Origin: an uncultured virus (IMG/VR IMGVR_UViG_3300027974_001778)
Taxonomy: Duplodnaviria; Heunggongvirae; Uroviricota; Caudoviricetes
Virus record (IMG/VR): IMGVR_UViG_3300027974_001778
Span: 62,001-126,000 of that record
DNA length: 64,000 nucleotides
Direction: 5' to 3' (one strand)
The notes under the pieces were generated by a model that saw only the letters and a program-made list of their open reading frames with translations, was not told the DNA's origin and made no database searches. The position numbers were made by a program, and so were the translations under genes. Shown piece after piece: positions 46,101 to 60,745 of this stretch. Numbering within the stretch: position 1 is the first letter of the stretch; each line of letters begins with the position of its first letter.

Positions 46101-46135
46101 ACAGATAAATAGTCAACATATTCAAAAAATATTTG

Positions 46136-46207: not shown

Positions 46208-46212
46208 ATATG

Positions 46213-46286: not shown

Positions 46287-46292
46287 GTTTAG

Positions 46293-46364
46293 AGGTTCTA
46301 TTAGGATTCGAACCTAAACTCCAAAATCCGTAGTTTTGTGTGCTATCCGTTACACCATAAAACC
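46293..46364 (-). tRNA. tRNA-Arg(ACG)
   Basis: Cloverleaf; loop CTACGGA. Confidence 0.9.
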
Positions 46365-46446
46365 TTAGTCACGGTCATTGTCCCATTTTACAACAAGCAT
46401 CAAAATAACCCATAATAATAATAACCACATATTTTTTTCCATTTTG

Positions 46447-46517
46447 TTATCCGACCTGGATTCGAACCAGAAATGACAGTACCAAAAACTGTAGTGTTAC
46501 CGTTACACCATCGGACA
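46447..46517 (-). tRNA. tRNA-Gln(TTG)
   Basis: Cloverleaf; loop TTTTGGT. Confidence 0.92.
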
Positions 46518-46522
46518 ATATG

Positions 46523-46596
46523 TGGACCAGATAGGAATCGAACCTATTACCTTCACATTATGAGTGTGCCGCTCTAACCGAATGAGCTACAAGTCC
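46523..46596 (-). tRNA. tRNA with CAT anticodon, probably Ile2 (lysidine) rather than Met
   Basis: Loop CTCATAA; GGACTTG acceptor resembles Ile2. Confidence 0.8.
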
Positions 46597-46689
46597 ATGA
46601 AGCTAAACATTGCTTTCAGGGTTGAAATGGCTCACAGATAAATCCGAATCACCACCTACTGATTTTACAGTATCTTAGTTTAACTTTTG

Positions 46690-46771
46690 TGGGAGTAGCT
46701 GGACTCGAACCAACGAACTCGAAAGAGGGAAGATTTACAGTCTTCTGCCATTGCCACTAGGCGATACTCCC
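46690..46771 (-). tRNA. tRNA-Tyr(GTA)
   Basis: Long variable arm; loop CTGTAAA. Confidence 0.92.
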
Positions 46772-46910
46772 AAAAATCAGGAAAGAGGAAGATGGTTCAG
46801 TGGACATCCTCTTTTACGATTGGCATTACTAATGGTAGTTTAAACTCCGACGATGTCTTATTCCAACCACTACCAGGTATTTACATCATCATTCCCCAAT
46901 CAACCTTTAG

Positions 46911-46983
46911 CACGCACGAAAGGGGTCGAACCTCTGACACATAGTTTTGGAGACTACTGCTCTACCATCTGAGCTACGCACGT
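46911..46983 (-). tRNA. tRNA-Trp(CCA)
   Basis: Cloverleaf; loop CTCCAAA. Confidence 0.92.
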
Positions 46984-46989
46984 GTTTAC

Positions 46990-47235
46990 TTAATTAATAA
47001 ATTCTTCTGTGTTTATGTTATGTTCGTCTAATATTTCGTATATCTTTCCAAACACTAACTCTAAAGTTTCGTACTTATCAACATCTTTACCTTCTAAAGA
47101 CCACTCTAAAGACTTTTTAGTATTATGGGTAATTTCCCATAATGCCATAGCCATATCAAAAGACTTAACCGCTCTTTTATGAGCAATTACTTCATCTTGG
47201 TCATTTAAATCAAATTCTAATATTCCTTTTGCCAT
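46990..47235 (-). CDS. hypothetical protein
   Basis: MAKGILEFDLND ORF between tRNAs. Confidence 0.75.
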   Translation of the reverse strand: MAKGILEFDLNDQDEVIAHKRAVKSFDMAMALWEITHNTKKSLEWSLEGKDVDKYETLELVFGKIYEILDEHNINTEEFIN

Positions 47236-47249
47236 AATATATATTTTTG

Positions 47250-47321
47250 AGGTCGATACAGGATTCGAACCTGTGTAAATAGTTTTGCAGACTACCGCCT
47301 AATCCACTCGGCCAATCGACC
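47250..47321 (-). tRNA. tRNA-Cys(GCA)
   Basis: Cloverleaf; loop CTGCAAA; U73. Confidence 0.92.
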
Positions 47322-47507
47322 ATTTAACGTTTCTTTAATTTTATATTTTTTACATCTTTTTTTAGGTATCTCAACATAATATGAACCAAATACAGAAATA
47401 AAAAGTCCAACATAGTTTTCTCCTTGTTCACTAACTTCTTGTAAAACGGTTCCTTCATATAAATGAGGAAAAATATCCGCGCTATCTTTTTTTACAACTA
47501 CTTTCAT
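47292..47507 (-). CDS. hypothetical protein (3' end runs 30 nt into tRNA-Cys)
   Basis: ATG with A-rich leader. Confidence 0.55.
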   Translation of the reverse strand: MKVVVKKDSADIFPHLYEGTVLQEVSEQGENYVGLFISVFGSYYVEIPKKRCKKYKIKETLNGRLAEWIRR

Positions 47508-47519
47508 TTTAATTTATTT

Positions 47520-47738
47520 TTAATGTGTTCCGTTTGTTAATGAAATCCCATGCCTTACTCCTGTAATGAAATCTTCAATTTCTTCTTCGGTCATATTGTT
47601 ATATCTCTTACCGACAGTATGTCCAATCTCATTACCACAATCACTTAAATCTCCTTCGTATATTGTTACATCTGATTTTCCTTTCAAAGATACAGAAATC
47701 CAAGATAAATCACTACTGTTAAATGTTCTTTTTTCCAT
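47520..47738 (-). CDS. hypothetical protein
   Basis: ORF in tRNA cluster. Confidence 0.7.
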   Translation of the reverse strand: MEKRTFNSSDLSWISVSLKGKSDVTIYEGDLSDCGNEIGHTVGKRYNNMTEEEIEDFITGVRHGISLTNGTH

Positions 47739-47743
47739 ATTTT

Positions 47744-48367
47744 TTAATTTAATGAATTTGGGTAATACAATAATGTCGGGTTCTTTTTTTGGATATCAAC
47801 CTCGGGATATCTTTCCTTAAATTTCATCACATTAAAAGGTTGAGTTATAATATGGAACCCACTTCTTGTTTTAATAAAAGTCATTCCTTGTTCTTTTCCC
47901 GCCTCTTTCTGTAACTCGTTTATATATTCTCTCATTTTAATTTGACTTGGAGAATGGTTAAATCCATCAATGGATACATTATCAATATCAATAATCCATC
48001 TTTTCTCTTGAGTCTTTATCTGTCCCACAACCGAGTCAAATAACCCCTTTTGGTTCTGAACTCCATTCTTAATTCTCTCAGCCAAACTTGCCAACATATC
48101 CAAAGACACATCTCTGTGATTTTGTTTCTGAACATGAATGTAAGCTCTTGCCTTGAACATCTCACATAATTGCATCACCTCATCATATCTCCTTTCCAAA
48201 TGGTCAACTGATTCAATGCAATATGTTTTAATAGTTCTAACCGACTGATGGTTATCTCTTTCTCCTTCAGGTTGGTCTTTCTTACGTTTGAAAACATACA
48301 GCATATAGAAGTCACCCTTCTCCTCAAAGTTCAATAATGGTTTTATTATGTCTATATTGTTTATCAT
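47744..48367 (-). CDS. hypothetical protein with AEP/primase-like motifs
   Basis: WIIDID and KTRSGFHII; ATG at 48367. Confidence 0.55.
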   Translation of the reverse strand: MINNIDIIKPLLNFEEKGDFYMLYVFKRKKDQPEGERDNHQSVRTIKTYCIESVDHLERRYDEVMQLCEMFKARAYIHVQKQNHRDVSLDMLASLAERIKNGVQNQKGLFDSVVGQIKTQEKRWIIDIDNVSIDGFNHSPSQIKMREYINELQKEAGKEQGMTFIKTRSGFHIITQPFNVMKFKERYPEVDIQKKNPTLLYYPNSLN

Positions 48368-48381
48368 ATCATTTTTTTTTG

Positions 48382-48484
48382 TTGTTAAGGTGGGATTCGA
48401 ACCCACAACGTAGTCTCGTAAAGAGAATCATCACCGTTTCGACTTACCGAGCCCTGTGCTCGTTTACATATCTACTACTTAACT
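48382..48484 (-). ncRNA. tRNA-like ncRNA 1 (acceptor + T arm, non-canonical interior)
   Basis: GTTAAG/CTTAAC stem, T-arm GTGGG-TTCGAAT-CCCAC, internal CGAGC/GCTCG and TCTC/GAGA hairpins. Confidence 0.6.
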
Positions 48485-48558
48485 TCCTACCCCACTTCAC
48501 CAGCTTAACGGACTGGCTGCCATATGGGAGTGGGGGTTTCCCGTTAATTCGGGACTCC

Positions 48559-48680
48559 GCGATGTTGCGGGAATCGAACCCACTCGATGAACTACTTGTG
48601 ATATGCACCAACCATTTGCTCCAATCCTAGTATTAAGGAGTGTTACCTACAAATCACCATCATTCAACCCTTTAACACCA
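48559..48680 (-). ncRNA. tRNA-like ncRNA 2 (acceptor + T arm, long interior helix)
   Basis: TGGTGTT/AACATCG stem, T-arm GTGGG-TTCGATT-CCCGC. Confidence 0.55.
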
Positions 48681-48827
48681 AATTTGACTACTGACTGACT
48701 CCTTTCGAACTTTGAGGGTTTGTATCATTCAATATCAGTAGTCCAAGGCTGTAGGAGCTCATCTTTACACTTAGGCTCTTTGTCTTCTCATGTTGCAACA
48801 TTTACGACCGTAGCGTCACCTTGTTTG

Positions 48828-48900
48828 TGGTACGAGGTGGGTTCGAACCACCGACAACTTGTTCTTCAGACAAGCACTCTACCAACTGAGTTATCGCACC
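48828..48900 (-). tRNA. tRNA-Phe(GAA)
   Basis: Cloverleaf; loop CTGAAGA. Confidence 0.92.
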
Positions 48901-48972
48901 AAGTTTAAAGTTAAAGTCGCCCACACTTGTTCGGGGCGGGACCTTTCGGTCACCTTCGACATCCCCTCAACT

Positions 48973-49188
48973 TTAATTCACTTCAATATCTTCCAAAGGT
49001 ACATCTTCTCCCTGAGTATGTTTATAAACTGTATTAAAAAACTCTCCTAACAATCTATAGTCCTCAGGAATCATATGACAAAAATCAAATGCAGGAATTG
49101 CACCATGAATTTGACCTTGTACTACCTTATCAAACTTATCATCTGGTTTGTACTCAAACACAGTATGTCCTCTAAAAATATATTTCAT
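48973..49188 (-). CDS. hypothetical protein
   Basis: 71-aa ORF in tRNA operon. Confidence 0.65.
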   Translation of the reverse strand: MKYIFRGHTVFEYKPDDKFDKVVQGQIHGAIPAFDFCHMIPEDYRLLGEFFNTVYKHTQGEDVPLEDIEVN

Positions 49189-49189
49189 A

Positions 49190-49289
49190 ACTTCCGATTT
49201 TGTCTTGTTTTTACTTCCGAATTTGGACGGGTTTTACTTCCGACTTTGTCACTGCTCACATTTGAGGAAGTTTACTGCTCAAATTTGAG
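49190..49289. repeat. 23-nt-periodic short repeats
   Basis: ACTTCCGA at 49190, 49213, 49236; ACTGCTCA.ATTTGAG at 49251, 49274. Confidence 0.7.
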
Positions 49290-49296
49290 ATTTATG

Positions 49297-49369
49297 TAGT
49301 CCCTGTAGGAATCGAACCTACGACAACTTGCATGTAAGGCAAGTGCTCTTCCAACTGAGCTAAGAGACT
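49297..49369 (-). tRNA. tRNA-Val(TAC)
   Basis: Cloverleaf; loop CTTACAT. Confidence 0.92.
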
Positions 49370-49374
49370 AAATG

Positions 49375-49448
49375 TATCGCGTACGGGGCTCGAACCCGTA
49401 ATCTTCATCGTGAAAGGATGACGACTTAACCAATTTGTCCAACGCGAC
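49375..49448 (-). tRNA. tRNA-Glu(TTC)
   Basis: Cloverleaf; loop CTTTCAC; TATCTTTG at 49459-49466. Confidence 0.92.
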
Positions 49449-49493
49449 ATTTGTTTCACAAAGATACAACCAATATTTCAAAGAGCCAAAAAC

Positions 49494-49661
49494 AAAAAAC
49501 CCTGAACTTCATTTCTGTAGTTCAGGGTATATAAAAAATTTGGTTTATTTTTAGTTTAAAAAATTATTCAAAATTATATCCGAACTACATGACTGCATAC
49601 GCTCATACCAACAAGTTTCTTGTTGTTGACTAAAGACTGTATGTTTTATTGTAGTTCTCAT
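49494..49661 (-). promoter_or_regulatory. attenuator-like leader: 36-aa uORF (49551-49661), antiterminator 49580-49589, terminator 49499-49528
   Basis: TGTAGTTCGG in the uORF is complementary to CTGAACTACA in the terminator 5' arm/loop; TATCTTTG at 49680-49687. Confidence 0.6.
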
Positions 49662-49735
49662 TGTTTCTAATATATAGTTCAAAGATATGAAAAAATCTTT
49701 GAGTGTCAAATATTTTTCCAAGTATTTATAAAAAG

Positions 49736-50155
49736 ATGAAGACATTAAGAGAAATTATTAAAGAAAATTTATTAGTTGAGAAAAGAATAACTCAAGTTAA
49801 CTCATCTTTAGAAGTTTTATTTGTATTTGATGTGAATAGAACCAGTCATGCGTTCGATAGAGATACTAGAGATGATATTGAAGGATATAACATAAGAGCG
49901 ATTGAGAATGATGAAATCAGAGAAATTATCAGTAAGGTAAAAAAAGAAATCTCCGAAAAAATAGTAACAAGAGAAATTGTACCTGAAGAAGATTTTGTCG
50001 TAAAATCTTTAAAGTGGGAATTGGCAATGGCGATAACTCCTGTTCATATGGGAGGAACCTATTGGCAACTAATCATCAAAACAGTATTTAGAGAATCCAA
50101 TCATAACCCTTTTAGAGTTGGTAAAAATCAATTGGTTATTTATTCTGACATCTAA
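49736..50155 (+). CDS. putative BECR-fold RNase-like protein
   Basis: TSHAFDR ... LIIKTVFR motif pair; MKTLREIIKE leader; ATG 5 nt after TATTTATA. Confidence 0.5.
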   Translation: MKTLREIIKENLLVEKRITQVNSSLEVLFVFDVNRTSHAFDRDTRDDIEGYNIRAIENDEIREIISKVKKEISEKIVTREIVPEEDFVVKSLKWELAMAITPVHMGGTYWQLIIKTVFRESNHNPFRVGKNQLVIYSDI

Positions 50156-50156
50156 T

Positions 50157-50246
50157 AAAAAAGGGTAACACTAGTATCTGAATCGTTCCCGTGTTACCCA
50201 GTTTGTAATTGAGCTTGTGTATCTAAATCGTGCTCCTCAATCACAA
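50157..50246 (-). ncRNA. candidate about 90-nt sRNA with two hairpins sharing loop motif ACGATTYAGATAC
   Basis: TATCTTTG promoter (50249-50256), two stems, terminal T-tract. Confidence 0.65.
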
Positions 50247-50308
50247 TACAAAGATACAAAAATATTTTGGTTTACAAAATCTATTGTATTTTTTTTTTAT
50301 AAATATTG

Positions 50309-50389
50309 TACCCCAAGTCGGACTCGAACCGACACGACTTACGTCACAAGTTCCTAAAACTTGAGTGTCTACCATTCCACCATCGGGGT
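50309..50389 (-). tRNA. tRNA-Leu(TAG)
   Basis: Long variable arm; loop TTTAGGA. Confidence 0.92.
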
Positions 50390-50489
50390 ATACATTATCA
50401 TCGCTCCAGCCACATCGAGGAACACGCCGCCCCCGCGTTGTTTAAGTGTATGAATTGCGCCGTATCTCACTGAGTTACGATGATAATTG

Positions 50490-50563
50490 TGATTCGGAAA
50501 GGATTCGAACCTTTGACCCCAAACTTAGAAGGTTTGTGCTCTATCCAGCTGAGCTACCGAACC
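50490..50563 (-). tRNA. tRNA-Arg(TCT)
   Basis: Cloverleaf; loop CTTCTAA. Confidence 0.92.
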
Positions 50564-50771
50564 AAATTTCCCCACCTGAAATCCCAGTGAGTAGATATTC
50601 GCAGTTTTTCGTATTGAAAAACCCAACGCGTCTTACCGCTTAAAAAGTCAAACATACTCGGTGGCGTTGTTACGACCATTCTCCGAGACCCCCTCTTAAG
50701 GCCGTGGTAGGAAACAACCATAACATCTTTAAAGAACGTTACCAAACTTGATGAGTACTTCTAACTCATTG

Positions 50772-50853
50772 TATCAGAGGTGGGACTCGAACCCACACGA
50801 GCAAAGCTCAACAGATTTTAAGTCTGTCTTGTATACCATTCCAACACTCTGAC
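50772..50853 (-). tRNA. tRNA-Leu(TAA)
   Basis: Long variable arm; loop CTTAAAA; TATCTTTG at 50863-50870. Confidence 0.92.
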
Positions 50854-50943
50854 ATTGTTTTACAAAGATAGTGAATATCTTTAATAAAGTCATAAAAAAA
50901 CCCCGAACTTTTTTAGTCGGGGTTTTAATTATAATAATTATTA

Positions 50944-51663
50944 TTAATCATTAAAACTTTCCTCGTAATAAGTATCGCTTGCGTTATCTTCTATATTTTC
51001 TGTATGAACCAATTCGATTGTCATATCATGAAAATTGAATATAAATTGTCCATCAGAACCTTCATTAATTTCCCAACCACTATAGTTATCACTAAGCTCT
51101 CTGTAACACCAATCTTCAATTGCAGCTGGAACTCCATCACCTGTTTCATTAAAACTACTTTCAAGATATCCCGAATCACCAGAACCATTATATGTTACTA
51201 TTAAAATCCCATCGTCAGGAATTGTAAGGTCTTCTAATACTCCACTTTCTTCCCATTCTTCAAATAGCTCCTTTCCTTGTTCATCCTCCCAAGTAACTGA
51301 ACTACCTTCTCCTCTAGTATAAAAAGACCACCAACGAGTAAAACTAATTTTTTTAGAATCTACGTCAATGTCGTATTCAAGTCTTTGATAATTCGTATCA
51401 TCATTATCAGGTTCTCTAATTAAATTATTATCATCGCAATATTTCATAATTTTTTGAAGTATTGGAATCAATCCTGATGGAATATCTGCATTGTAGTTAT
51501 TAGTGAAATGGGTTACATAATCCCAATCAACATTGTCATAATCAAATTCCTCTTGATTATCCATATCAATTTCAATGTTGCCGTCTTGCATTCCCATTGA
51601 ACCTAAGTAATTGGATATTCTTCTTAAATATTGTTTTTCTTCTGGTGTTAAAATTCCTTTCAT
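50944..51663 (-). CDS. DUF6878-like protein
   Basis: VTYNGSGDSG ... GWEINEGSDGQFIF; adjacent to DUF6915-like gene. Confidence 0.55.
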   Translation of the reverse strand: MKGILTPEEKQYLRRISNYLGSMGMQDGNIEIDMDNQEEFDYDNVDWDYVTHFTNNYNADIPSGLIPILQKIMKYCDDNNLIREPDNDDTNYQRLEYDIDVDSKKISFTRWWSFYTRGEGSSVTWEDEQGKELFEEWEESGVLEDLTIPDDGILIVTYNGSGDSGYLESSFNETGDGVPAAIEDWCYRELSDNYSGWEINEGSDGQFIFNFHDMTIELVHTENIEDNASDTYYEESFND

Positions 51664-51674
51664 ACTTATAAATA

Positions 51675-52028
51675 TCAGTCGTTGAACTCTAGTTTAATTG
51701 TTTTTAACATCCATTGAGGACGTTGATTTGTTGATACGTTATTTATCCATTCTTTGGCAGATGGAATGTAGTTATTACAATCTTCTTTAACATGTTGTTC
51801 TCCAACATATCTGGTGTAGACTGTAGTCCCGTCGCTATTCTTAAATTCGGCCCCAAATCTTTTTTCCATTTCAAAAATACCCTCACTATGATGTCTAAAC
51901 ATTCTATGAAGTGAATCTCCAAACCATCCTTTAGTCTCATCTAACCATTCATGTAGATGAATATAGTCTTCAGGTTTTCCACCAAATTTTTTGGCGGATG
52001 ATTTTGCATGTAAGTTAGGGTGTGCCAT
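51675..52028 (-). CDS. DUF6915-like protein
   Basis: MAHP..HAKSS.KKFGG.PEDY..LH.W.D.TK...HR..RHHSEGIF...GEQHVKED. Confidence 0.7.
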   Translation of the reverse strand: MAHPNLHAKSSAKKFGGKPEDYIHLHEWLDETKGWFGDSLHRMFRHHSEGIFEMEKRFGAEFKNSDGTTVYTRYVGEQHVKEDCNNYIPSAKEWINNVSTNQRPQWMLKTIKLEFND

Positions 52029-52593
52029 TTTTCCAAGAGTCTTTATTGTAGTTAAAATATACGAAATCTTCTTCTAAATAAGAATAAACATAATCAGCCA
52101 AATCTTGGTCATAATATTCTTTATAATCATATCCTGATGAATAACCGTTGTTTAAAATGTTATCATACACAATATCAAAAAGTTCATGTGAATCATCCAT
52201 AAAAAATGGAAGTTTTAATATGTCTGAGTATAAATTCTCAACTCTAATTAATAAATCAGGAGTTTTGGTAATCCTTTTTTTTAAAAAAAATTCATAATCC
52301 AAAGTTTTGCCAGGAAATTTTATTTCTTCATGCAATTTTTGTCTAATCCAACTATTAAAGTCATTAGGAATTAAATTAGAGTGTATACAAAAAAGATGAT
52401 ATATTGAAATCATTCTGATATATGGATTTCTTGTATTTAAAACAAAAAAATATTCTTCTTTACCTTTTGGAATTTGCAAACCATGTAGTCCAATAACGTC
52501 AAATTCAAAGTATGTTTGAATAGGCATGCATGACCTTGCTGCCGTTCTAATAGGTGTTGCCCACAATACTTTATATTTGTCAGAATAATTCAT
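52015..52593 (-). CDS. sulfotransferase-like protein
   Basis: PIRTAARS, RNPYIRMISIY, EEDFVYFNY. Confidence 0.7.
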   Translation of the reverse strand: MNYSDKYKVLWATPIRTAARSCMPIQTYFEFDVIGLHGLQIPKGKEEYFFVLNTRNPYIRMISIYHLFCIHSNLIPNDFNSWIRQKLHEEIKFPGKTLDYEFFLKKRITKTPDLLIRVENLYSDILKLPFFMDDSHELFDIVYDNILNNGYSSGYDYKEYYDQDLADYVYSYLEEDFVYFNYNKDSWKNGTP

Positions 52594-52826
52594 TATAAAA
52601 TCTTTTCTTGTCTTCTTCTTGCCATTTCAGCGTCTTTGTACCATCTAATCCAAGTTAAAGACACATCAATTGGTGCTAACACCCAAGCCATAACCATAAC
52701 CATAATAGTATCTAATTCAGGAGACCCACCTGTTGGGTCATCACTATACCTTTTACTAAGGTTTTTAAATAACTGATAGAAACAATATATTACACATACA
52801 AGGTAATATCCAATAAACATACTCAT
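52593..52826 (-). CDS. small membrane protein
   Basis: ATG after tRNA-Thr; two hydrophobic segments; exact start uncertain. Confidence 0.55.
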   Translation of the reverse strand: MSMFIGYYLVCVIYCFYQLFKNLSKRYSDDPTGGSPELDTIMVMVMAWVLAPIDVSLTWIRWYKDAEMARRRQEKIL

Positions 52827-52841
52827 AAATAAAAATTTTTG

Positions 52842-52914
52842 AGCCTCCTGTCGGACTCGAACCAACGACCACTTGTTTACAAAACAAGAGCTCTACCAAC
52901 TGAGCTAAGGAGGC
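52842..52914 (-). tRNA. tRNA-Thr(TGT)
   Basis: Cloverleaf; loop TTTGTAA. Confidence 0.92.
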
Positions 52915-52917
52915 TTA

Positions 52918-52992
52918 TGGAGCAGATGAGAGGAATCGAACCTCCGTCTCCTACTTGGAAGGAAGGAGTAATGACCATTATACGACATCTGC
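52918..52992 (-). tRNA. tRNA-Gly(TCC), encoded CCA
   Basis: Loop CTTCCAA; U73-CCA; one U.U in anticodon stem. Confidence 0.9.
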
Positions 52993-53048
52993 GTGGAGTG
53001 CAGTGGGAGGTACCTTCCCTGTGGTTACTACACATTTTATCCACTTTG

Positions 53049-53121
53049 CGGTCCCGACGGGATTCGAACCCGTATCTCGCACCGTGACAGGGTGGAATTG
53101 TAACCATTCAACCACGGAACC
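53049..53121 (-). tRNA. tRNA-Asp(GTC)
   Basis: Cloverleaf; loop CTGTCAC. Confidence 0.92.
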
Positions 53122-53149
53122 GTGTATGGGGAGTTTCACCCCAAACTTT

Positions 53150-53638
53150 TTACTCAACAAAGATATGATTATATTCCAATATTCTTCGTTTTAATTTATT
53201 AACATATTGTGGGTCCTCGGCATAAACTTTACCGAGTAATGCAAAATATTGTTTTTTTGTCATATCATTACGTGATTTTAACATGTGGTCTTGCCACAAT
53301 GAGTAATCATACACGCTATACCCCCAATCTTCGTATTTTGAGTAACCACTTTGGGTTTCCCCAATCTTTGCGGATTCTCTTTTACTTGGAACTTTCATTC
53401 CAAAAAGATTATTAGCTGATTTGAACAACTTTGATGTAAACTCTCCTGATTCTAATATAGCTTGTGCAAACACAATATCAGGAAATTTTATACCATACTT
53501 AATTATCTGCTCATACAAACTTTCTTTTGAGATACTCTCTTGAGTATTTGATTCAATCTGTACTTGCTTCTCTTGTGCTTTGGTTGCCATTGTTCCTAAC
53601 AATAACATCCCAGTCAATAAGAATGTTTTTAACTTCAT
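53150..53638 (-). CDS. secreted GH73 glucosaminidase-like peptidoglycan hydrolase
   Basis: Signal peptide; AQAILESG, NNLFGMK, YAEDPQY. Confidence 0.85.
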   Translation of the reverse strand: MKLKTFLLTGMLLLGTMATKAQEKQVQIESNTQESISKESLYEQIIKYGIKFPDIVFAQAILESGEFTSKLFKSANNLFGMKVPSKRESAKIGETQSGYSKYEDWGYSVYDYSLWQDHMLKSRNDMTKKQYFALLGKVYAEDPQYVNKLKRRILEYNHIFVE

Positions 53639-53718
53639 TTCTTTCTTTTTGTCTGTTTATGCTTCAGGATTGCTCCATCCACGATACTACAACATTGGAA
53701 TTTTTCCACCTACCGCAG

Positions 53719-53790
53719 AGGCCCCTGTAGGATTTGAACCTACGACCAGTTGATTAACAGTCAACTGCTCTACCACTGAGCTAAAGGGCC
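53719..53790 (-). tRNA. tRNA-Asn(GTT)
   Basis: Cloverleaf; loop CTGTTAA; discriminator U. Confidence 0.9.
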
Positions 53791-53830
53791 TTATAATAAT
53801 AAATAAAATTTCCAATAAAGGAAACTTTTG

Positions 53831-53904
53831 TCGGGATGGCTGGATTCGAACCAACGGCCTCCACGTCCCAAACGTGGCGCGATACCTGACTACGCTACAT
53901 CCCG
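53831..53904 (-). tRNA. tRNA-Pro(TGG)
   Basis: Cloverleaf; loop TTTGGGA. Confidence 0.92.
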
Positions 53905-53909
53905 TAAAT

Positions 53910-54060
53910 AAAAAAACCCTGAAGGATAAGTTCAGGGTTTAAATAATTGGCTATAATATTGTTACCAACCACTCGCTTCTGAACTTACGCATATAGTGCC
54001 CCCATCTCCATTAGGAGTTGTCGGCGTGTCTAAATTTGTATTTGTGTTCATAGTTTTCAT
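53910..54060 (-). promoter_or_regulatory. attenuator-like leader: 32-aa uORF (53962-54060), antiterminator 53979-53987, terminator 53914-53940
   Basis: TAAGTTCAG in the uORF is perfectly complementary to CTGAACTTA in the terminator; tRNA-Pro starts about 10 nt after the stem. Confidence 0.65.
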
Positions 54061-54115
54061 AGTACAATATTACAATAAATATATTCAAAATCAAATAAAT
54101 CCCTATTTTAGTTTT

Positions 54116-54835
54116 TTAAGGTAATGTGTTACTACCTTTCAGGTAAAAGTCACCTACAACTTTTGGTCTTAATTCTGTACCTGAGTACGTACTATAAACT
54201 CTGTATTCCCCAACAGGAATACGAGTTCCCGTGTAATTTAAAACATAATCAGATAATGTAGAATTAGTATTGAAAGGAGTTCTATATATCATATTGGTAT
54301 GCGCACTAGACATTCTTGATTGTCTCCAATTTGGGTTAGGTGTTGCATTCACAGGAATTAATACCATAATCCACACAAATTGATTATTAACTAAAGGACC
54401 ATTAATTTTAACCGTTCCAAAATTATACACACCTGCCGAAGTTTGTGTAATATTTGATTGAATGACTGTAGGTAATGTTCCATTATACCAATACGGCATA
54501 TCAATATAATTTAACAAATCAGTATAATTTGTTGATTTGATTGGTGACCCAGTAAAAAAACCATAAAATGGAGTGTTTGTCGGGGTTTGTGTACTACGAG
54601 GTCTTGTCTTTAAATAACTCACAATCATATTGAGTTTTGACTGAGGCTCAACAAAAATATAAACCTTTGGTCCAACTGATGAAACAGTCGGAGATGTTGA
54701 CATTGTTCTTAAGTCTTCTCCTTGAGTTGATTCAATTGAAGTTTGTTTAACTGGGTCATACACGTCGTCTTTTGTACAAGATACAAATAATACCGATGTT
54801 GCGAAAATTGCAAGAAATAATTGTTTTAGTTTCAT
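54116..54835 (-). CDS. lipoprotein (Bacteroidota-type surface export signal)
   Basis: LFVSC-TKDD lipobox + K(D/E)2; TATCTTTG at 54851-54858. Confidence 0.75.
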   Translation of the reverse strand: MKLKQLFLAIFATSVLFVSCTKDDVYDPVKQTSIESTQGEDLRTMSTSPTVSSVGPKVYIFVEPQSKLNMIVSYLKTRPRSTQTPTNTPFYGFFTGSPIKSTNYTDLLNYIDMPYWYNGTLPTVIQSNITQTSAGVYNFGTVKINGPLVNNQFVWIMVLIPVNATPNPNWRQSRMSSAHTNMIYRTPFNTNSTLSDYVLNYTGTRIPVGEYRVYSTYSGTELRPKVVGDFYLKGSNTLP

Positions 54836-54904
54836 AGTTGTCTTTTTTTACAAAGATAATAAAATAATTTGATTTTGAAAATTATTTACAGATATTTATT
54901 CTTG

Positions 54905-55006
54905 ATGATAGACAATAATATTACGTGTCTTTTGGGAATTAACCAAAAATATGAGAACTCGGGAACGTTGAGATGTGGAAAACCTCGAACCATAAACTAT
55001 TGCTAA
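54905..55006 (+). CDS. 33-aa small ORF followed by terminator (55023-55050)
   Basis: MIDNNITCLLGINQKYENSGTLRCGKPRTINYC*; ATG 4 nt after TATTTATT. Confidence 0.45.
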   Translation: MIDNNITCLLGINQKYENSGTLRCGKPRTINYC

Positions 55007-55153
55007 ATCATTGGGATATTTTAAAGGGGTCGAAGTTCGTCCCCTTTTTTGTTTTTATCATCCAAATAAACTATGTTTGTAAAAATTGGATAAAATGTTT
55101 AGTAGACTAAATCCAAATATATATAAAAACATTACCGTCTAAACAATTACAGA

Positions 55154-57895
55154 ATGAGAGAAATTAAATCTTTTGATATTTTTGATACTTTAATATCAAG
55201 AACTGTTGAAAATCCGATTGATATTTTTGACATTGTTGAAAAACAATTCCCGTATAATAATTTTAAAAATTTACGAATTCAGTCACAAAATCAATCAAAC
55301 CACACAATGGATTCAATTTATAATGAATTTAAAAATATCACAAATGAATCTGATGAAACCATAAATAAGTTAAGAGAATTTGAACTAATTACGGAAATGG
55401 AAAATACCATACCAATTTTTAGTAATATTTCAAAAATAAAAGACGGTGATATATTTGTTTCTGATATGTACCTGTCTTCAAATGAAATACGTAAATTACT
55501 TGATTATCATAATATAAATAAAAATACGGAGTTATTTGTTTCATCTGGAGGTAAATCAGATGGTACAATGTGGGAGGCTCTTACACAAACATATAAAATT
55601 AATTCTCATTATGGTGACAATTATCATTCTGATATAATGATGGCCTCAAGATATGGAATAAAAGGGGTTTACACAGAAGCCTATAAATTCACAGTTTTAG
55701 AATCATATCTTATTCGAAATAATGAATTTGAGTTATGTCAACAAATAAGAAAATTTAGACTTGCAAATCCATATGATGAAAATACTATAGAATACAAAAT
55801 ATACGAACAACAAATTTCTTATAATATACCAATACTATTATTTATTTGTAATAAACTAGATGAAATTTTAATAAATGAAAATCGTAATACTGTATTATTT
55901 CATTCAAGAGATGGGTGCTTATTAATAAAATTATTTTCTTACTTATACCCACAATATAAATCAATATATTTACATTCTAGCAGAATTATTAATAATGATT
56001 ATACCGATGACTATATTTCATATTTAAAAGAAAATTATGATAAAGATAGTTGTGTTTTATTTGATTTACATGGTTCATTAAACAGTGGGAAAAAACTTTT
56101 TACATCACTTTTTGAACATTTGCCTAGAATATTTATTTTTGACCTTTCTTATATTGAAAATTATATTAGTGAAATAACATATATCACAAATTACTCAAGT
56201 AAAATAGAGGAGTTTAATCATGATTATAAAGGAACATTAGTTCAATTTATAAAGAATGAAGATATACGTACCCCAACTGAGCATCCTCTAAAATATATTG
56301 ATATAATTCATAGTATTTTTGATTCTTTTATAAAATATTTTGATGTAAATTTGAAAAAAAATCCAATATTGAACAATAATGATTTTTTTAAAAAATATTA
56401 TGTAGAAACTGTATGTAAATCTGAAACTATTTTAAAAAACCAATTTGAATTTTTGAATCTTACCAAATTAGCAAACAAATATAACTCAGACAAAGGAAAC
56501 CTTTTTTTGTGTGCTCACCATTACTCTATAAAGTACGAACAAATATTCAATGATATATTAAATTTTAAATTAGGAAGAAAAGATTTTTCTACATTTGATT
56601 TATTAGAAATTGGATTAAATATATCAACCACAGAAGAATCAATCCCATCATTAATGATATGGAATGATTATTTTAATAAAAATATAAATATTACAGGATT
56701 TGATATAGATAATCGTTTTTCAAAATTAAATATAGACCAAAATATAGATATTAAAATTGGTGACCAATCAAGTGAAAAGGACTTATTACAATTAAAAAAT
56801 AAAAACTATGACATGATAATTGATGATGGTTATCATGCGTCAAAACATCAACAAATTACATTTAAAACATTGTGGCAAAACGTAAAACCAGGAGGATATT
56901 TTATTATTGAGGATTTACATTACCAACCAGAGCCAGAAACGTGCATAAAAACAAAAGAGTTATTTGAAAATTGGAAGAGCGATAATTGGATAGAAACTGA
57001 GTATATTAACTCAGATGAAATACAAATCATCAAAAAGGATATTGAAAGTATTGAATTTTATGACTCAAGCTCAAAAAATTGGGGGGATTCCGTAAAAAAC
57101 GCGTTTGTGTATATTAAAAAAAAAGAAAGAATGAATATTATAAATGAAAACACTATGAATGAAATTATACAATATGAATTTCCAGTACCATCACAGGCGG
57201 AAGAAAAATATTATTACACAGATAAATCAGCGATTTTGAATATCAGAAACATTTTAAGTAAAAATGGTAAGTATAATTATTGTGAAATTGGTTCTTATTT
57301 AGGAGGTTCATTAGTCCCCTTTTTAAGAGACCCTCAATGTGAGTATATACTATCAGTTGATGATAGAGGTAATATACAACCAGATGAAAGGGGTATTAGT
57401 TATGATTACAGGCATATTTCAACCCAAACTATGTTAGATACATTATCAAAGCATAGTTTAGATTTAACAAAATTAGAAACATTTGATGGTTCTGTACATG
57501 AATTAAATAAAAACATCAATAAATTTGATTTAGTTTTTATAGATGGTGAACATACCGATTATGCATGTTTTAGAGACTTTATGTATTCTCAAAAATACCT
57601 AAAAGAAAATTCAGTTGTTATGTTTCATGATAGTACTTTAGTATATAAATCATTAAAAATAATACAAGAATATCTGACATGTAATAATATAGTTCATAAA
57701 TTTATTAAAATTCCAAATTCATCAGTAACGTTTATTTTTTTTGGTGATTATATTTCTTTGTGTACTGAATTTGAATCAGAAGATGTTGAAATTTTTTATA
57801 ATAAGTCAGAAGAAGAGGTTCTTTACCATGTTATACAAAATAGAGTAGAGGGAAGTTTTATTATTAAAAATAAAACATACACAATAGGTGGGTAA
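55154..57895 (+). CDS. multidomain HAD-like hydrolase + two class I SAM methyltransferase domains
   Basis: SFDIFDTL, VSDMYL, HYGDN..SD; LLEIG..IIDDGYH..GGYFIIEDL; YCEIGSYLGGS..FIDGEH..FHD. Confidence 0.8.
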   Translation: MREIKSFDIFDTLISRTVENPIDIFDIVEKQFPYNNFKNLRIQSQNQSNHTMDSIYNEFKNITNESDETINKLREFELITEMENTIPIFSNISKIKDGDIFVSDMYLSSNEIRKLLDYHNINKNTELFVSSGGKSDGTMWEALTQTYKINSHYGDNYHSDIMMASRYGIKGVYTEAYKFTVLESYLIRNNEFELCQQIRKFRLANPYDENTIEYKIYEQQISYNIPILLFICNKLDEILINENRNTVLFHSRDGCLLIKLFSYLYPQYKSIYLHSSRIINNDYTDDYISYLKENYDKDSCVLFDLHGSLNSGKKLFTSLFEHLPRIFIFDLSYIENYISEITYITNYSSKIEEFNHDYKGTLVQFIKNEDIRTPTEHPLKYIDIIHSIFDSFIKYFDVNLKKNPILNNNDFFKKYYVETVCKSETILKNQFEFLNLTKLANKYNSDKGNLFLCAHHYSIKYEQIFNDILNFKLGRKDFSTFDLLEIGLNISTTEESIPSLMIWNDYFNKNINITGFDIDNRFSKLNIDQNIDIKIGDQSSEKDLLQLKNKNYDMIIDDGYHASKHQQITFKTLWQNVKPGGYFIIEDLHYQPEPETCIKTKELFENWKSDNWIETEYINSDEIQIIKKDIESIEFYDSSSKNWGDSVKNAFVYIKKKERMNIINENTMNEIIQYEFPVPSQAEEKYYYTDKSAILNIRNILSKNGKYNYCEIGSYLGGSLVPFLRDPQCEYILSVDDRGNIQPDERGISYDYRHISTQTMLDTLSKHSLDLTKLETFDGSVHELNKNINKFDLVFIDGEHTDYACFRDFMYSQKYLKENSVVMFHDSTLVYKSLKIIQEYLTCNNIVHKFIKIPNSSVTFIFFGDYISLCTEFESEDVEIFYNKSEEEVLYHVIQNRVEGSFIIKNKTYTIGG

Positions 57896-59077: not shown

Positions 59078-60745
59078 ATGAGGGTACTAGGATTTTCGGT
59101 AGGCCATGATAAAGGCGCGGTTATTATTGAGAACGGAAAAGTTGTTGTTGGGATAACCCAAGAAAGACTTTCCAGAATAAAGCATGATGGTGCATATCAA
59201 GGTGGCGTAATACCATTTGAATCAATAAATTATTGTCTAAGCTCTATGGGTATTACACATAGAGATATTGACTATTATGTTTATAGTACAACAGAAGTTG
59301 AAGATACTGTTTTTAGGCAGTTTTTTGCCAAGTATAGCGACCTTAGAAAAGAAATCTTATATTTCATTCCTCACCATTTAGCTCACGCATATTCAGCATT
59401 TTTTAGTTCAGGTCTTGAAGAATCTGCAGTTGTTGTTGCGGACGCCTCAGGAAGTATTTTAACCTTTAAAAACAAATTAAATCTTTGGTATGAAAAAACC
59501 AGAGATGGGTTAGATACCAATGAAGATTGGGCTGAAGGTATATCTATTTTTAAATTTAATAAAACGGAGCATAATGAAGTTTATAAAAAATGGATAAAAT
59601 ACCCCGTTCCTCTTGAAACCGATGAATCAACCTCTTTAGGTACAATGTATTCAACAGGTTCATTACAGTTAATTTATGAACCTAATAGTCAGACTTGGCC
59701 AGCAGGTAAATTAATGGGATTAGCATCTTATGCCGATATGGATATTGTTAATGAAGCTCCTCAATTTGTTCAAGAATTAGAAGATGATATTTTTATTTCA
59801 AATCATAAAATTTATCCAAAAGTTTCTTGGAAATCTGATTTCTTCTCAAGAGCTTGTGTTGCAGGAATTTACCAAAGGGAACAAGAAAGAGCCTCAATGA
59901 TTTTAGCTAAAATGGCTAAAAAGTTCACTGATTCAAAAAATATTTGTGTTGTTGGTGGTTCTTTTTTAAACTGTAATTCAAATGAATTAATTTTAAACTC
60001 AGGATTATTTGAGAATTGTTACTTCATACCTCCTAGTGATGATAGTGGTATACCATTAGGATGTGCGTGGTACGCATATCAAAAAATAACCGATATTGAA
60101 TCTACAGAACAATTAATCCCATATTTTGGTAAATCTTACGATAAAGAAGATATTTTTACGGCATTAAATCAATTTCCAAATTTAAAGTACACTGAGTATC
60201 AGAACTTTGAAGATTTAACTGAAGAAATTTCATATTCTTTAACTCAAAATAGAGTAGTTGGATGGTTCCAAGGAGGGTCTGAAATTGGCCCAAGAGCATT
60301 AGGTAATCGTTCAATATTAGCGTCACCAATACAATCTTGGATGACAGGCCATATCAATAGTGATATTAAAAAAAGAGAGTGGTATCGACCATTTGCACCT
60401 GCTGTAATGTTTGAACACCAATCTGAAATTTTTGAGTCTTCAGATTATTCTCCTTATATGTTAGTAACAACAACAGTTAAAGAAGAATGGAGAAATAAAA
60501 TTCCTGCAGTTACTCACATCGATAATTCCGCAAGACACCAATCAGTTACTGAACAAAATAATCTAAAGTTTTATTCTTTAATTAATAAATTTTATGATAA
60601 GACAGGAGTACCTGTATTACTTAATACAAGTTTTAATGGGCCATCGGAACCTATTGTTGAAACGCCTTTAGACGCTATTAATACATTTTTGGAAACAAAT
60701 TTAGACATCTTAGTTATTAATAATATTGTTATTATCCGTGAGTAA
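59078..60745 (+). CDS. carbamoyltransferase (NodU/CmcH family)
   Basis: ERLSRIKH, HHLAHAYSAF, GKLMGLASY, EIGPRALGNRSIL, KKREWYRPFAP, LLNTSFN. Confidence 0.93.
   Translation: MRVLGFSVGHDKGAVIIENGKVVVGITQERLSRIKHDGAYQGGVIPFESINYCLSSMGITHRDIDYYVYSTTEVEDTVFRQFFAKYSDLRKEILYFIPHHLAHAYSAFFSSGLEESAVVVADASGSILTFKNKLNLWYEKTRDGLDTNEDWAEGISIFKFNKTEHNEVYKKWIKYPVPLETDESTSLGTMYSTGSLQLIYEPNSQTWPAGKLMGLASYADMDIVNEAPQFVQELEDDIFISNHKIYPKVSWKSDFFSRACVAGIYQREQERASMILAKMAKKFTDSKNICVVGGSFLNCNSNELILNSGLFENCYFIPPSDDSGIPLGCAWYAYQKITDIESTEQLIPYFGKSYDKEDIFTALNQFPNLKYTEYQNFEDLTEEISYSLTQNRVVGWFQGGSEIGPRALGNRSILASPIQSWMTGHINSDIKKREWYRPFAPAVMFEHQSEIFESSDYSPYMLVTTTVKEEWRNKIPAVTHIDNSARHQSVTEQNNLKFYSLINKFYDKTGVPVLLNTSFNGPSEPIVETPLDAINTFLETNLDILVINNIVIIRE

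What the first reader, a model, noticed from the sequence alone, without database searches (positions are those of the whole stretch)
53910..54060. Leader-peptide attenuator directly gating a phage tRNA operon
Seen (minus strand): a 32-aa uORF absent from the ORF track (MKTMNTNTNLDTPTTPNGDGGTICVSSEASGW*), then an intrinsic terminator AAACCCTGAA-CTTATCC-TTCAGGGTTT-TTTT, then tRNA-Pro about 10 nt later with no room for a promoter. The 3' part of the uORF contains TAAGTTCAG, a perfect 9-bp complement of CTGAACTTA spanning the terminator 5' arm and loop. Established: this is the layout of ribosome-coupled transcription attenuators. Inference: a ribosome that finishes the uORF covers the antiterminator and allows termination, whereas stalling early in the Thr/Asn/Pro-rich leader frees it. 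The downstream tRNAs (Pro, Asn, Asp, Gly, Thr) match the residues that dominate the leader. The phage may therefore sense tRNA depletion, for example from host anticodon-nuclease defence, and switch on its own tRNAs. I am not aware of attenuation described for phage tRNA arrays.
Basis: partly seen in the sequence, partly recalled or inferred. Interest (0 to 1): 0.85.

Follow-up and report, generated by a model that had tools for sequence, protein, structure and literature searches.

The report
Codon-matched leader switches before phage tRNAs
An uncultured lake phage puts tiny translated test genes in front of its tRNA gene blocks; each is spelled in the codons that the following tRNAs read and is wired to a switchable transcription stop, so the phage probably makes more of a tRNA set when ribosomes run short of it.

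Summary
A 32-codon ORF (54060-53962, minus strand) is followed by a 10-bp terminator (53940-53914) and, 9 nt after the stem, tRNA-Pro. No promoter motif lies between them.

The cassette heads the tRNA island in 30 distinct relatives:
- The ORF is always intact, with only in-frame indels and mostly synonymous changes.
- Its GTTCAG word pairs with the terminator's 5' arm in 24 of 24 distinct sequences, with compensatory changes.

The decisive result is new. The phage family carries paralogous leaders before the other tRNA blocks:
- A Leu/Arg-rich leader lies before tRNA-Leu/Arg/Leu, in relatives only.
- A leader holding His, Val, Phe, Gln, Glu, Cys-Trp-Tyr, Arg, Met, Ser and Ile lies before the block encoding those tRNAs (window 49661-49551).
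- In 5 of 5 three-leader phages, 0 of 4000 random re-partitions of the tRNAs match the leaders as well.

All three leader types show the classical 1:2 / 2:3 / 3:4 attenuator layout.

Caveats:
- Most other cassettes have a promoter-like box after the terminator.
- The antiterminator energy rarely exceeds shuffles.
- Nothing here is experimental.

Five literature searches found no description of such control of tRNA genes. This scan has noted the same design before on other DNA.

The parts
54065..54094 (-). Putative promoter of leader 1: TTG (54094-54092), 19 nt, TAATATTG (54072-54065). It includes the box ATATATTTAT (54084-54075), which is conserved in all relatives.
   Evidence: Sequence read. 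The TTG keeps a 19-20 nt spacing although the upstream flanks differ. The -7 element has one mismatch to TAnnTTTG. No start site has been mapped; this is inference.
53962..54060 (-). Leader ORF 1: 32 codons plus stop.
   Evidence: It is intact in 30 of 30 distinct relatives, at 30-35 codons. The only indels inside it are in frame; 1-nt indels occur only after the stop.
54046..54050 (-). Region 1 (UGAAC, leader nt 11-15), the anti-antiterminator partner of region 2.
   Evidence: RNAalifold consensus helix: 5 pairs kept in 19 of 19 sequences, one through a C-to-U change that gives U-G. The helix is short and weak.
53995..54024 (-). Sensor block, codons 13-22 (PTTPNGDGGT), made only of amino acids whose tRNAs follow.
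   Evidence: It is the most conserved peptide block across clades, with synonymous variation. Ten of its 10 residues are served by the first five tRNAs; permutation p about 1e-4, post hoc.
54006..54017 (-). Small hairpin CUCC-UAAU-GGAG inside the sensor block; a possible RNA polymerase pause site.
   Evidence: The two third-codon positions co-vary: U-A 3, U-G 17, A-U 8, G-U 1; one sequence has no hairpin. The pause role is inferred.
53979..53987 (-). Region 2 (TAAGTTCAG), the 5' half of the antiterminator.
   Evidence: TTCAG is invariant. Both synonymous sites inside it never vary in 27 distinct ORFs. It ends 14 nt before the stop in 29 of 30 sequences.
53941..53974 (-). Hairpin around the stop codon (GAGUGGUUGGU ... 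GCCAAUUAUUU). It stacks under the 2:3 helix.
   Evidence: Nascent-RNA fold. On alignment A5 its two parts are paired in 71% and 85% of cells, with two pairs changed on both sides.
53910..53940 (-). Intrinsic terminator (stem 53940-53914, T-run to 53910). Region 3 is CTGAACTTA at 53935-53927.
   Evidence: It is one of only three TTCRGGGTTTTTT sites in the 127-kb record, and all three sit at the heads of tRNA blocks.
52841..53904 (-). The gated unit: tRNA-Pro, tRNA-Asn, a 162-aa glucosaminidase (endolysin-like), then tRNA-Asp, Gly and Thr.
   Evidence: ARAGORN and Rfam; Pfam and PHROGs. The order is conserved in relatives.
50863..50925 (-). Terminator only (50925-50895) plus a TATCTTTG box (50870-50863) before tRNA-Leu/Arg/Leu. 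This is where relatives carry the Leu/Arg leader.
   Evidence: The 22-codon leader MRTTLLHTLLLDRQGLLRRLMP is present in 9 of the 16 records read and absent here.
49459..49709 (-). Paralogous cassette 3:
- promoter 49709-49680
- 36-codon leader 49661-49551
- region 1 at 49657-49650
- region 2 at 49589-49580
- terminator 49528-49499 with a T-run
- second promoter 49489-49459
- then tRNA-Glu.
   Evidence: RNAalifold predicts 1:2 plus the terminator in 12 sequences. The 2:3 helix is 89% paired, with 3 pairs changed on both sides.

Best explanation
The element is a ribosome-dependent (leader-peptide) transcription attenuator. It is one of a family of paralogous attenuators that head the tRNA blocks of this phage group.

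Proposed sequence of events:
1. A promoter fires just upstream of a 32-codon leader.
2. If ribosomes read the leader quickly, they run over region 2 (GUUCAG). The terminator (regions 3:4) then forms and transcription stops 9 nt before tRNA-Pro.
3. If a ribosome stalls earlier, region 2 stays free. The stall would be on the Pro/Thr/Asn/Gly/Asp codons of the sensor block, for lack of the matching charged tRNA.
4. Free region 2 pairs with the 5' arm and loop of the terminator (2:3, stacked on a hairpin around the stop codon). Polymerase then reads through into tRNA-Pro, Asn, Asp, Gly and Thr.
5. Without any ribosome, region 1 can hold region 2.

Each leader is written in the codons its own tRNA block reads, so each block would be re-supplied when its own codons are decoded slowly.

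Shown by comparison: the coding constraint, the pairing and its covariation, and the codon match. Inferred: translation itself, stalling, the direction of the switch, and its physiological trigger.
For: (1) Anatomy confirmed.
- No promoter motif lies between terminator and tRNA-Pro, although TTG-N17-21-TAnnTTTG precedes other units, for example 10 nt before tRNA-Glu.

(2) Linkage to the tRNA island.
- The cassette lies directly before tRNA-Pro/Asn in every true hit: 15 IMG/VR and 26 metagenome stretches.
- It does so in 7 of the 8 new loci found by peptide search; the eighth is a spurious match inside a long ORF.
- It does so in 17 loci found by the terminator pattern alone.
- Meanwhile the upstream gene and the tRNA-Pro sequence itself vary.

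(3) Coding constraint.
- 27 distinct ORF sequences are all intact.
- Indels are in frame, including a 9-nt duplication.
- Synonymous variation occurs at conserved residues: CCG/CCT, ACT/ACA, AAT/AAC, GGA/GGG/GGT, GAA/GAG, GCG/GCA/GCT.

(4) The switch.
- The 6-bp 2:3 core is paired in 24 of 24 distinct sequences.
- Pair 10-72 is G-C 21, A-U 2, G-U 1. Pair 9-73 is A-U 8, G-C 6, U-A 1, unpaired 9.
- The covariation score is 0.122 against 0.077 +/- 0.011 in shuffles (0 of 500 reach it). 80% of cells are paired against at most 50% when partners are slid.
- In nascent RNA cut before the 3' arm, the minimum-energy fold contains 2:3 in 14 of 16 representatives.
- The geometry is fixed: region 2 ends 14 nt before the stop in 29 of 30, and the stop lies 17-24 nt before the stem.

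(5) Independent test by paralogues.
- The Leu/Arg leader uses TTA, CTT, CTA and AGA codons and precedes tRNA-Leu(TAA), Arg(TCT) and Leu(TAG).
- The third leader uses CGT/CGC where its block holds tRNA-Arg(ACG), and contains Cys-Trp-Tyr in gene order.
- Matching of leaders to their own blocks beats all 4000 random partitions in 5 of 5 three-leader phages, at both amino-acid and codon level.
- In 7 two-leader phages p ranges from <=0.0002 to 0.03. The window scores 44 of 66 residues, p<=0.0057.

(6) Shared layout.
- RNAalifold predicts a 1:2 helix plus the terminator in all three leader families.
- In the third family 2:3 is 89% paired, with 3 pairs changed on both sides.

(7) Division of labour.
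- In phages without a separate Leu/Arg leader, leader 1 itself carries 4-6 Leu and 0-2 Arg, and its block includes those tRNAs.
Against: (a) Promoter-like boxes follow most other terminators. An exact TAnnTTTG box lies after the terminator in cassette 3, in the Leu/Arg cassette, and in 8 of 11 distant versions of cassette 1. Those tRNAs need not depend on read-through.

(b) The free energy gained by sequestering the terminator's 5' arm exceeds dinucleotide shuffles only in the window (z -2.8) and L046 (z -3.2). The other 14 representatives have z from -1.9 to +1.2.

(c) The seventh and eighth 2:3 pairs are unpaired in 9 and 13 of 24 distinct sequences.

(d) The whole peptide is conserved at the amino-acid level, including C-terminal modules (SEASGW, SDTDVG, SSDIIFE) that are exchanged between leaders 1 and 3. 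A pure codon sensor does not require this.

(e) Under strict wobble only 14 of 31 window leader codons are read by the block's tRNAs. ACT, CCT and GGC would need a U34 that reads U or C.

(f) Leader content does not always track tRNA loss.
- L104 keeps Phe and Lys codons without those tRNAs.
- Ala at codon 20 goes with a tRNA-Ala in most phages, but not in L029 or L036, and L104 has Gly there with a tRNA-Ala.

(g) The sequences are related, so the shuffle counts are not probabilities. The search pattern forced codons 4-11 to stay synonymous.

(h) There is no mapped start site, no term-seq or Ribo-seq data, and no cultured host.
Confidence: 0.65

Rival explanations
1. The terminators are plain insulators between transcription units. 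Each tRNA block is driven by its own promoter, and the window clade simply lost one. The small ORF units are separate genes whose transcripts end at the terminator. Any read-through is constitutive leak, and the leader transcript or peptide has some other output.
For: Exact TAnnTTTG boxes follow the terminators of cassette 3, of the Leu/Arg cassette and of 8 of 11 distant cassette-1 versions. In the distant clade the -33 TTG even lies in the terminator loop. The antiterminator energy is mostly within the shuffle range.
Against: It does not explain why each leader is spelled in the codons of its own block. It does not explain why region 2 co-varies with the terminator arm. It does not explain why at least three lineages (the window clade, L087/L094, L093/L100) keep tRNA-Pro directly behind the terminator with no box.
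Confidence: 0.15
2. The peptides themselves are the functional part, either as nascent arrest peptides sensing a small molecule or factor in the ribosome tunnel, or as peptides acting in trans. The switch would then answer to something other than tRNA supply.
For: Conservation runs along the whole peptide at the amino-acid level. There are discrete C-terminal types, each kept by synonymous change, and these are swapped between leaders 1 and 3. Leader peptides with functions in trans are in print: peTrpL, PMC7298713, of which I saw only the abstract in a search listing.
Against: No family, signal peptide or partner was found. The codon match of three different leaders to three different tRNA blocks needs a separate explanation. 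The shared C-terminal modules overlap region 2 and the hairpin around the stop, so RNA constraints may explain part of their conservation.
Confidence: 0.12
3. Ordinary small phage genes (morons) happen to sit beside tRNA genes. The residue match and the complementarity to the terminator are coincidence, together with shared ancestry.
For: The layout of own promoter, small ORF and own terminator is the classical moron layout. The sequences are related, so counts of conserved features are inflated.
Against: 0 of 4000 permutations reach the observed match in 5 of 5 three-leader phages. The upstream neighbour changes often, but the tRNA-Pro junction never does. There is covariation in two leader families.
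Confidence: 0.06

Closest known systems
Leader-peptide attenuators of enterobacterial amino-acid operons (trpL, hisL, leuL, thrL, ilvL, pheL; Rfam Trp/His/Leu/Thr/Phe leader families); names recalled
   Same: A short translated leader carries codons for the regulated product. Four RNA segments pair alternatively as 1:2, 2:3 and 3:4. An intrinsic terminator lies just before the regulated genes. Some leaders are multivalent, as recalled for thr and ilv.
   Different: The regulated genes are tRNA genes, not biosynthetic enzymes, so the loop would re-supply the decoder itself. The leaders sample 5 to 13 amino acids. The elements are phage-borne, in a probable Bacteroidota host. No Rfam leader family matches at this locus. 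Region 2 lies inside the ORF in leaders 1 and 3.
pheST attenuator (pheM leader) and T-box riboswitches (recalled)
   Same: Both couple the charging state or supply of a tRNA to termination upstream of genes of the decoding apparatus.
   Different: They control aminoacyl-tRNA synthetase or amino-acid genes, not tRNA genes. A T-box binds uncharged tRNA directly without translation, and no T-box match was found in 44000-56000 at E<=1.
Antibiotic-responsive leader attenuators (for example the tylosin-induced yxjB leader, PMC6851288; abstract seen in search listings)
   Same: A ribosome stalled on a short leader ORF flips a terminator/antiterminator. Such elements act as general sensors of slowed translation.
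   Different: There the stall is caused by a drug and a particular nascent peptide. Here the leader composition points to codon supply.
rnTrpL / peTrpL of Sinorhizobium (PMC6614838, PMC7298713; abstracts seen in the search listing)
   Same: An attenuator whose released RNA and leader peptide also act in trans. This is a precedent for a conserved leader peptide.
   Different: No evidence here for any action in trans; the regulated genes differ.

Membership tests
Ribosome-dependent (leader-peptide) transcription attenuator | A short ORF upstream of the regulated genes that is translated | tested here: met
   Comparative evidence only. All 27 distinct ORF sequences are intact, indels are in frame, and conserved residues show synonymous variation. 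Translation itself was not observed.
Ribosome-dependent (leader-peptide) transcription attenuator | An intrinsic terminator between the leader and the regulated genes | tested here: met
   A 10-bp stem plus T-run at 53940-53910, conserved in all relatives.
Ribosome-dependent (leader-peptide) transcription attenuator | An antiterminator that is mutually exclusive with the terminator | tested here: met
   The 2:3 core is paired in 24 of 24 sequences with compensatory changes. The paralogous leader is 89% paired with 3 covarying pairs. However, the energy stands out from shuffles in only 2 of 16 representatives.
Ribosome-dependent (leader-peptide) transcription attenuator | An anti-antiterminator (1:2) near the start of the leader | tested here: inconclusive
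   RNAalifold predicts one in all three leader families. In leader 1 it has only 5 pairs and is not evident in every distant relative.
Ribosome-dependent (leader-peptide) transcription attenuator | Regulatory codons that correspond to the product of the regulated genes | tested here: met
   Permutation of the tRNA partition gave p<=0.0002 in 5 of 5 three-leader phages and <=0.0002 to 0.03 in 7 two-leader phages.
Ribosome-dependent (leader-peptide) transcription attenuator | No promoter between the terminator and the regulated genes | tested here: inconclusive
   By motif, the feature is met for the window's leader 1. It is not met for cassette 3, the Leu/Arg cassette, or 8 of 11 distant versions of leader 1. 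No start sites have been mapped.
Ribosome-dependent (leader-peptide) transcription attenuator | Read-through changes with leader translation or charged-tRNA supply | not testable with these tools
   This needs term-seq, Ribo-seq or reporter assays. The metatranscriptome contigs were uninformative.
Rfam amino-acid leader families and T-box | A match to the covariance model | tested here: not met
   cmscan of 44000-56000 at E<=1 gave no leader or T-box match at 53910-54060 or 49490-49710. Sub-threshold Phe_leader hits lie only at 44713-44792.

The most novel reading that the evidence does not exclude
Phage tRNA islands are built as a bank of codon-matched leader-peptide attenuators. Each tiny test gene measures how fast the cell decodes one group of codons and releases transcription of exactly the tRNAs that read them. 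That would give the phage a per-codon-family homeostat for decoding capacity. It could also serve as an alarm against host tRNA depletion or cleavage during infection.
Probability: 0.45. Interest if true: 0.9.

Novelty: new variant of a known kind. Interest (0 to 1): 0.86.

Why it matters
Leader-peptide attenuation is a textbook mechanism, but it is known for genes that make or charge amino acids, not for tRNA genes.

If this reading holds, four things follow:
- tRNA supply can be set by a direct feedback loop read out by the ribosome.
- It explains why phage tRNA islands are cut into blocks of fixed composition.
- It gives a sequence rule for finding such sensors in other phages and bacteria: a leader spelled in the codons of the tRNAs behind it.
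- It turns the open question of when and why phages express their own tRNAs into a testable one, including as a response to host tRNA-targeting defence.

The leaders would also be compact, modular sensors of decoding speed for chosen codons.

Tried and rejected
**Searches that found nothing**
- No Rfam family at the locus.
- The 32-aa peptide has no match in NCBIfam, PHROGs or the ESM Atlas.
- tblastn of two leader peptides against GenBank phages found nothing.
- A scan of bacterial and archaeal genomes gave 74 pattern matches, none a relative.
- A DNA search of GenBank phages found only tRNA similarity.

**Readings dropped**
- The long A-U helix that encloses the ORF in the first fold. Its 5' arm is the putative promoter, so it is probably not in the RNA, and it is not kept in relatives.
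- A link between Ala or Gly at codon 20 and the presence of tRNA-Ala. It fits most phages but fails in L029, L036 and L104.
- The two 239-aa neighbouring proteins as paralogues. They are unrelated.
- A secreted signal peptide or RiPP precursor (conserved N-terminus, variable C-terminus). No hydrophobic signal is visible in the peptide, and no modifying enzyme turned up among the eight neighbouring ORFs scanned. The codon match explains the N-terminal part better.

**Tests that gave weak or no support**
- The antiterminator is not significantly more stable than in shuffles in 14 of 16 representatives.
- Metatranscriptome contigs of four RNA runs have no piece bridging from the ORF across the terminator. 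Parts are without cover, and DNA carry-over is not excluded. I draw no conclusion on termination or read-through from them.

**Not used**
- Structure prediction, fold search and complex prediction, because no claim here rests on a protein fold or a protein complex.

Full report
**1. The observation**

- A 32-codon ORF lies at 54060-53962.
- A hairpin AAACCCTGAA-CTTATCC-TTCAGGGTTT lies at 53940-53914, with a T-run to 53910.
- tRNA-Pro(TGG) starts at 53904.
- It is followed by tRNA-Asn, a 162-aa glucosaminidase, and tRNA-Asp, Gly and Thr.

The terminator is listed by the consensus scan with 10 pairs. The scan found 12 sites in the region against 5.5 +/- 2.3 in shuffles. The hairpin folds at -11.9 kcal/mol. 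TAAGTTCAG (53987-53979) is the exact complement of CTGAACTTA (53935-53927).

The phage has a T4-type capsid, portal and terminase. Its nearest cultured relatives by capsid protein, at about 42% identity, include Flavobacterium phages. Its transcription units carry the Bacteroidota promoter form TTG-N17-21-TAnnTTTG, usually TATCTTTG, for example 10 nt before tRNA-Glu. No such motif lies between the terminator and tRNA-Pro. A candidate promoter, TTG-N19-TAATATTG, ends 4 nt before the leader ATG. That is read from the sequence and is not mapped.

**2. Relatives and coding constraint**

The cassette was found three ways.
- A pattern on the leader found 15 IMG/VR stretches and 26 metagenome stretches.
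- A pattern on the promoter found the same 15 IMG/VR contigs.
- More distant members came from a peptide profile and, without reference to the ORF, from a pattern on the terminator. The peptide profile gave 17 loci, 16 of them real. The terminator pattern gave 17 loci, 11 of them distinct.

In every real case the small ORF and terminator sit directly before tRNA-Pro and then tRNA-Asn. The upstream gene differs in at least five ways, and tRNA-Pro itself occurs in several unrelated sequence versions. The order of the whole tRNA island is conserved.

All 27 distinct ORF sequences are intact, at 30-35 codons.
- The only indels inside them are in frame, including a 9-nt duplication.
- 1-nt indels occur only after the stop.
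- Conserved residues vary synonymously.

Caveat: the pattern forced codons 4-11 to stay synonymous. The argument therefore rests on the other codons and on the sets found by the promoter or terminator patterns.

**3. The RNA switch**

Across 30 sequences (24 distinct over this stretch), region 2 ([G/A]TTCAG) pairs with region 3 (CTGAA[C/T]) in all of them. Region 3 is the top of the terminator's 5' arm.
- Changes are compensatory: G-C 21, A-U 2, G-U 1.
- The next pair involves a terminator loop base and is A-U 8, G-C 6, U-A 1, unpaired 9.
- The covariation score is 0.122 against 0.077 +/- 0.011 in shuffles (0 of 500).
- Sliding the partners drops pairing from 80% to at most 50%.

The two synonymous sites inside region 2 never vary in 27 ORFs, although five different amino acids occupy the first of the two codons.

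The geometry is fixed. Region 2 ends 14 nt before the stop in 29 of 30 sequences. The stop lies 17-24 nt before the stem.

When the RNA is cut just before the 3' arm, the minimum-energy fold contains 2:3 stacked on a hairpin around the stop codon in 14 of 16 representatives. The other two use another upstream partner for the same arm.

RNAalifold also predicts a short 1:2 helix, UGAAC at nt 11-15 with GUUCA. A small hairpin inside the sensor block keeps pairing through linked third-position changes.

Against: the energy gained by sequestering the arm stands out from dinucleotide shuffles only in the window and L046. The other 14 have z from -1.9 to +1.2.

**4. Paralogous leaders: the decisive test**

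The 127-kb record has only three TTCRGGGTTTTTT terminators, and each heads a tRNA block.

One of them (49528-49499) follows a promoter (49709-49680) and a 36-codon ORF (49661-49551), MRTTIKHTVFSQQQETCWYERMQSCSSDIILNNFLN. It precedes Glu, Val, Phe, Cys, Trp, Tyr, Met, Gln, Arg(ACG), Met, His, Ile and Ser.

In relatives a third leader, MRTTLLHTLLLDRQGLLRRLMP, precedes tRNA-Leu(TAA), Arg(TCT) and Leu(TAG). It uses TTA, CTT, CTA and AGA codons. The window keeps only that terminator, at 50925-50895.

The third-block leader is present in all relatives that reach it, including five distant phages fetched for this purpose.

I then re-partitioned each phage's tRNAs at random, keeping block sizes.
- The observed match of whole leaders to their own blocks was never reached in 4000 trials in 5 of 5 three-leader phages. 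An example is 59 of 84 residues and 48 of 84 codons.
- In 7 two-leader phages p ranged from <=0.0002 to 0.03.
- The window scored 44 of 66 residues (p<=0.0057) and 32 of 66 codons (p<=0.0142).
- Twelve of the 15 records listed were tested.
- Two ORF classes were dropped beforehand: the C-terminal end of the DUF6878 gene, and an out-of-frame overlap in L103.

Arginine is split as the model predicts: AGA in the Leu/Arg leader, and CGT/CGC where the block holds tRNA-Arg(ACG). In phages without a separate Leu/Arg leader, leader 1 itself is rich in Leu and carries AGA, and its block includes those tRNAs.

The paralogues share the switch design.
- RNAalifold predicts 1:2 plus the terminator in both.
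- In the third-block leader region 1 (GAACUACA) repeats region 3.
- Its 2:3 helix is 89% paired, with three pairs changed on both sides, against at most 45.5% when slid.
- In the Leu/Arg leader region 2 starts 3 nt after the stop, as in the classical layout.

**5. What speaks against or limits this**

- Exact TAnnTTTG boxes lie between terminator and first tRNA in cassette 3, in the Leu/Arg cassette and in 8 of 11 distant versions of cassette 1. In the distant clade the -33 TTG lies in the terminator loop. In those cases read-through can only add to transcription from a promoter of the block's own.
- The arrangement without a box, as in the window, occurs in at least three lineages.
- The peptides are conserved along their whole length. 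They carry discrete C-terminal modules (SEASGW, SDTDVG, SSDIIFE) that are exchanged between leaders 1 and 3. This suggests an added role of the peptide, or of the RNA that encodes it.
- Strict wobble covers only 14 of 31 window leader codons.
- Some leaders keep codons for tRNAs their phage lacks.
- Relatedness inflates all counts.
- Metatranscriptome contigs hold the leader region in four RNA runs but do not settle termination or read-through.

**6. Mechanism proposed**

- Fast translation carries the ribosome over region 2, so 3:4 forms and transcription ends.
- A ribosome stalled on the sensor codons (13-22 in leader 1) leaves region 2 free. Its footprint ends before nt 74. Region 2 then pairs with region 3 as it emerges, and polymerase reads into the tRNA genes.
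- Without translation, 1:2 can hold region 2.

The comparative facts are shown. Translation, stalling, the direction of the switch and the trigger are inferred. The suggested trigger by host anticodon nucleases has no evidence here.

**7. Known systems and novelty**

The design is that of the leader-peptide attenuators of amino-acid operons and of pheST (names recalled). No Rfam leader or T-box model matches, and the regulated genes are tRNA genes.

Five full-text searches found no paper describing leader-peptide attenuation of tRNA genes in phages or cells. I saw listings and abstract starts only. Subscription journals are not covered.

This scan has noted the same design before on other DNA, including two related phage genomes. 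I read those notes after reaching the reading above. They agree with it but are not independent evidence.

**8. Verdict**

I file it as a new variant of a known kind of regulation. Confidence in the attenuator reading is 0.65 and interest is 0.86.

Noticed in passing
window 53951 (leader nt 110, just before the conserved CCAA): Contigs from three RNA runs of three studies cover about 54099/54106 down to 53951 and all stop at that base. In one run a sequencing adapter abuts it. This may be an RNA 3' end or a priming limit at the loop of the hairpin around the stop codon. No DNA run was laid for comparison.
   Followed up: partly
window 53768-53924: One 159-base contig of RNA run X4 spans the terminator's loop and 3' arm, the T-run, tRNA-Pro, the spacer and the start of tRNA-Asn. 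Only 15-20 bases lie on the terminator side, and DNA carry-over is not excluded, so it is no proof of read-through.
   Followed up: no
window 50895-50925: A terminator without its leader. Relatives carry a 22-codon Leu/Arg leader here, while the window, L026, L025 and L027/31/33 have lost it or never had it.
   Followed up: yes
L014/L021 versus L023/L034; L088/L093/L095 versus L024: The C-terminal modules of leader 1 (SSDIIFE, SDTDVG) recur in the third-block leader of other phages. This indicates recombination between paralogous leaders at the region-2 / stop-hairpin / terminator module.
   Followed up: partly
L086-L099 (the distant clade), terminator loop CTTGAAA: The -33 TTG of the promoter-like motif for tRNA-Pro lies inside the terminator loop, 19-20 nt before a TAnnTTTG box that follows the T-run. 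Terminator and promoter therefore overlap (by eye).
   Followed up: partly
L022, L030, L035, between the promoter box and tRNA-Glu: An insertion of about 95 nt, with repeated ends, sits between the promoter-like box and tRNA-Glu in these three loci only. Its nature is unknown.
   Followed up: no
L005/L026 and L029, second tRNA of the island: tRNA-Asn(GTT) is called at 86 nt with the anticodon at position 36, which is unusually long for tRNA-Asn.
   Followed up: no
L049, L060: An in-frame 9-nt duplication gives MKTMKTM at the start of leader 1 and adds a second copy of the start context.
   Followed up: no
window 55154-57895 (+), 33825-35837 (+), 59078-60745 (+): Three large ORFs lie near the tRNA island: a 913-aa protein with two methyltransferase domains, a ClpB-like double AAA+ ATPase, and a carbamoyltransferase.
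   Followed up: no
window 54116-54835 (-): The 239-aa gene upstream of the leader has no Pfam or PHROG family. Its N-terminus looks like a lipoprotein signal (hydrophobic stretch, then Cys) by eye. It is replaced by unrelated genes in other phages.
   Followed up: no
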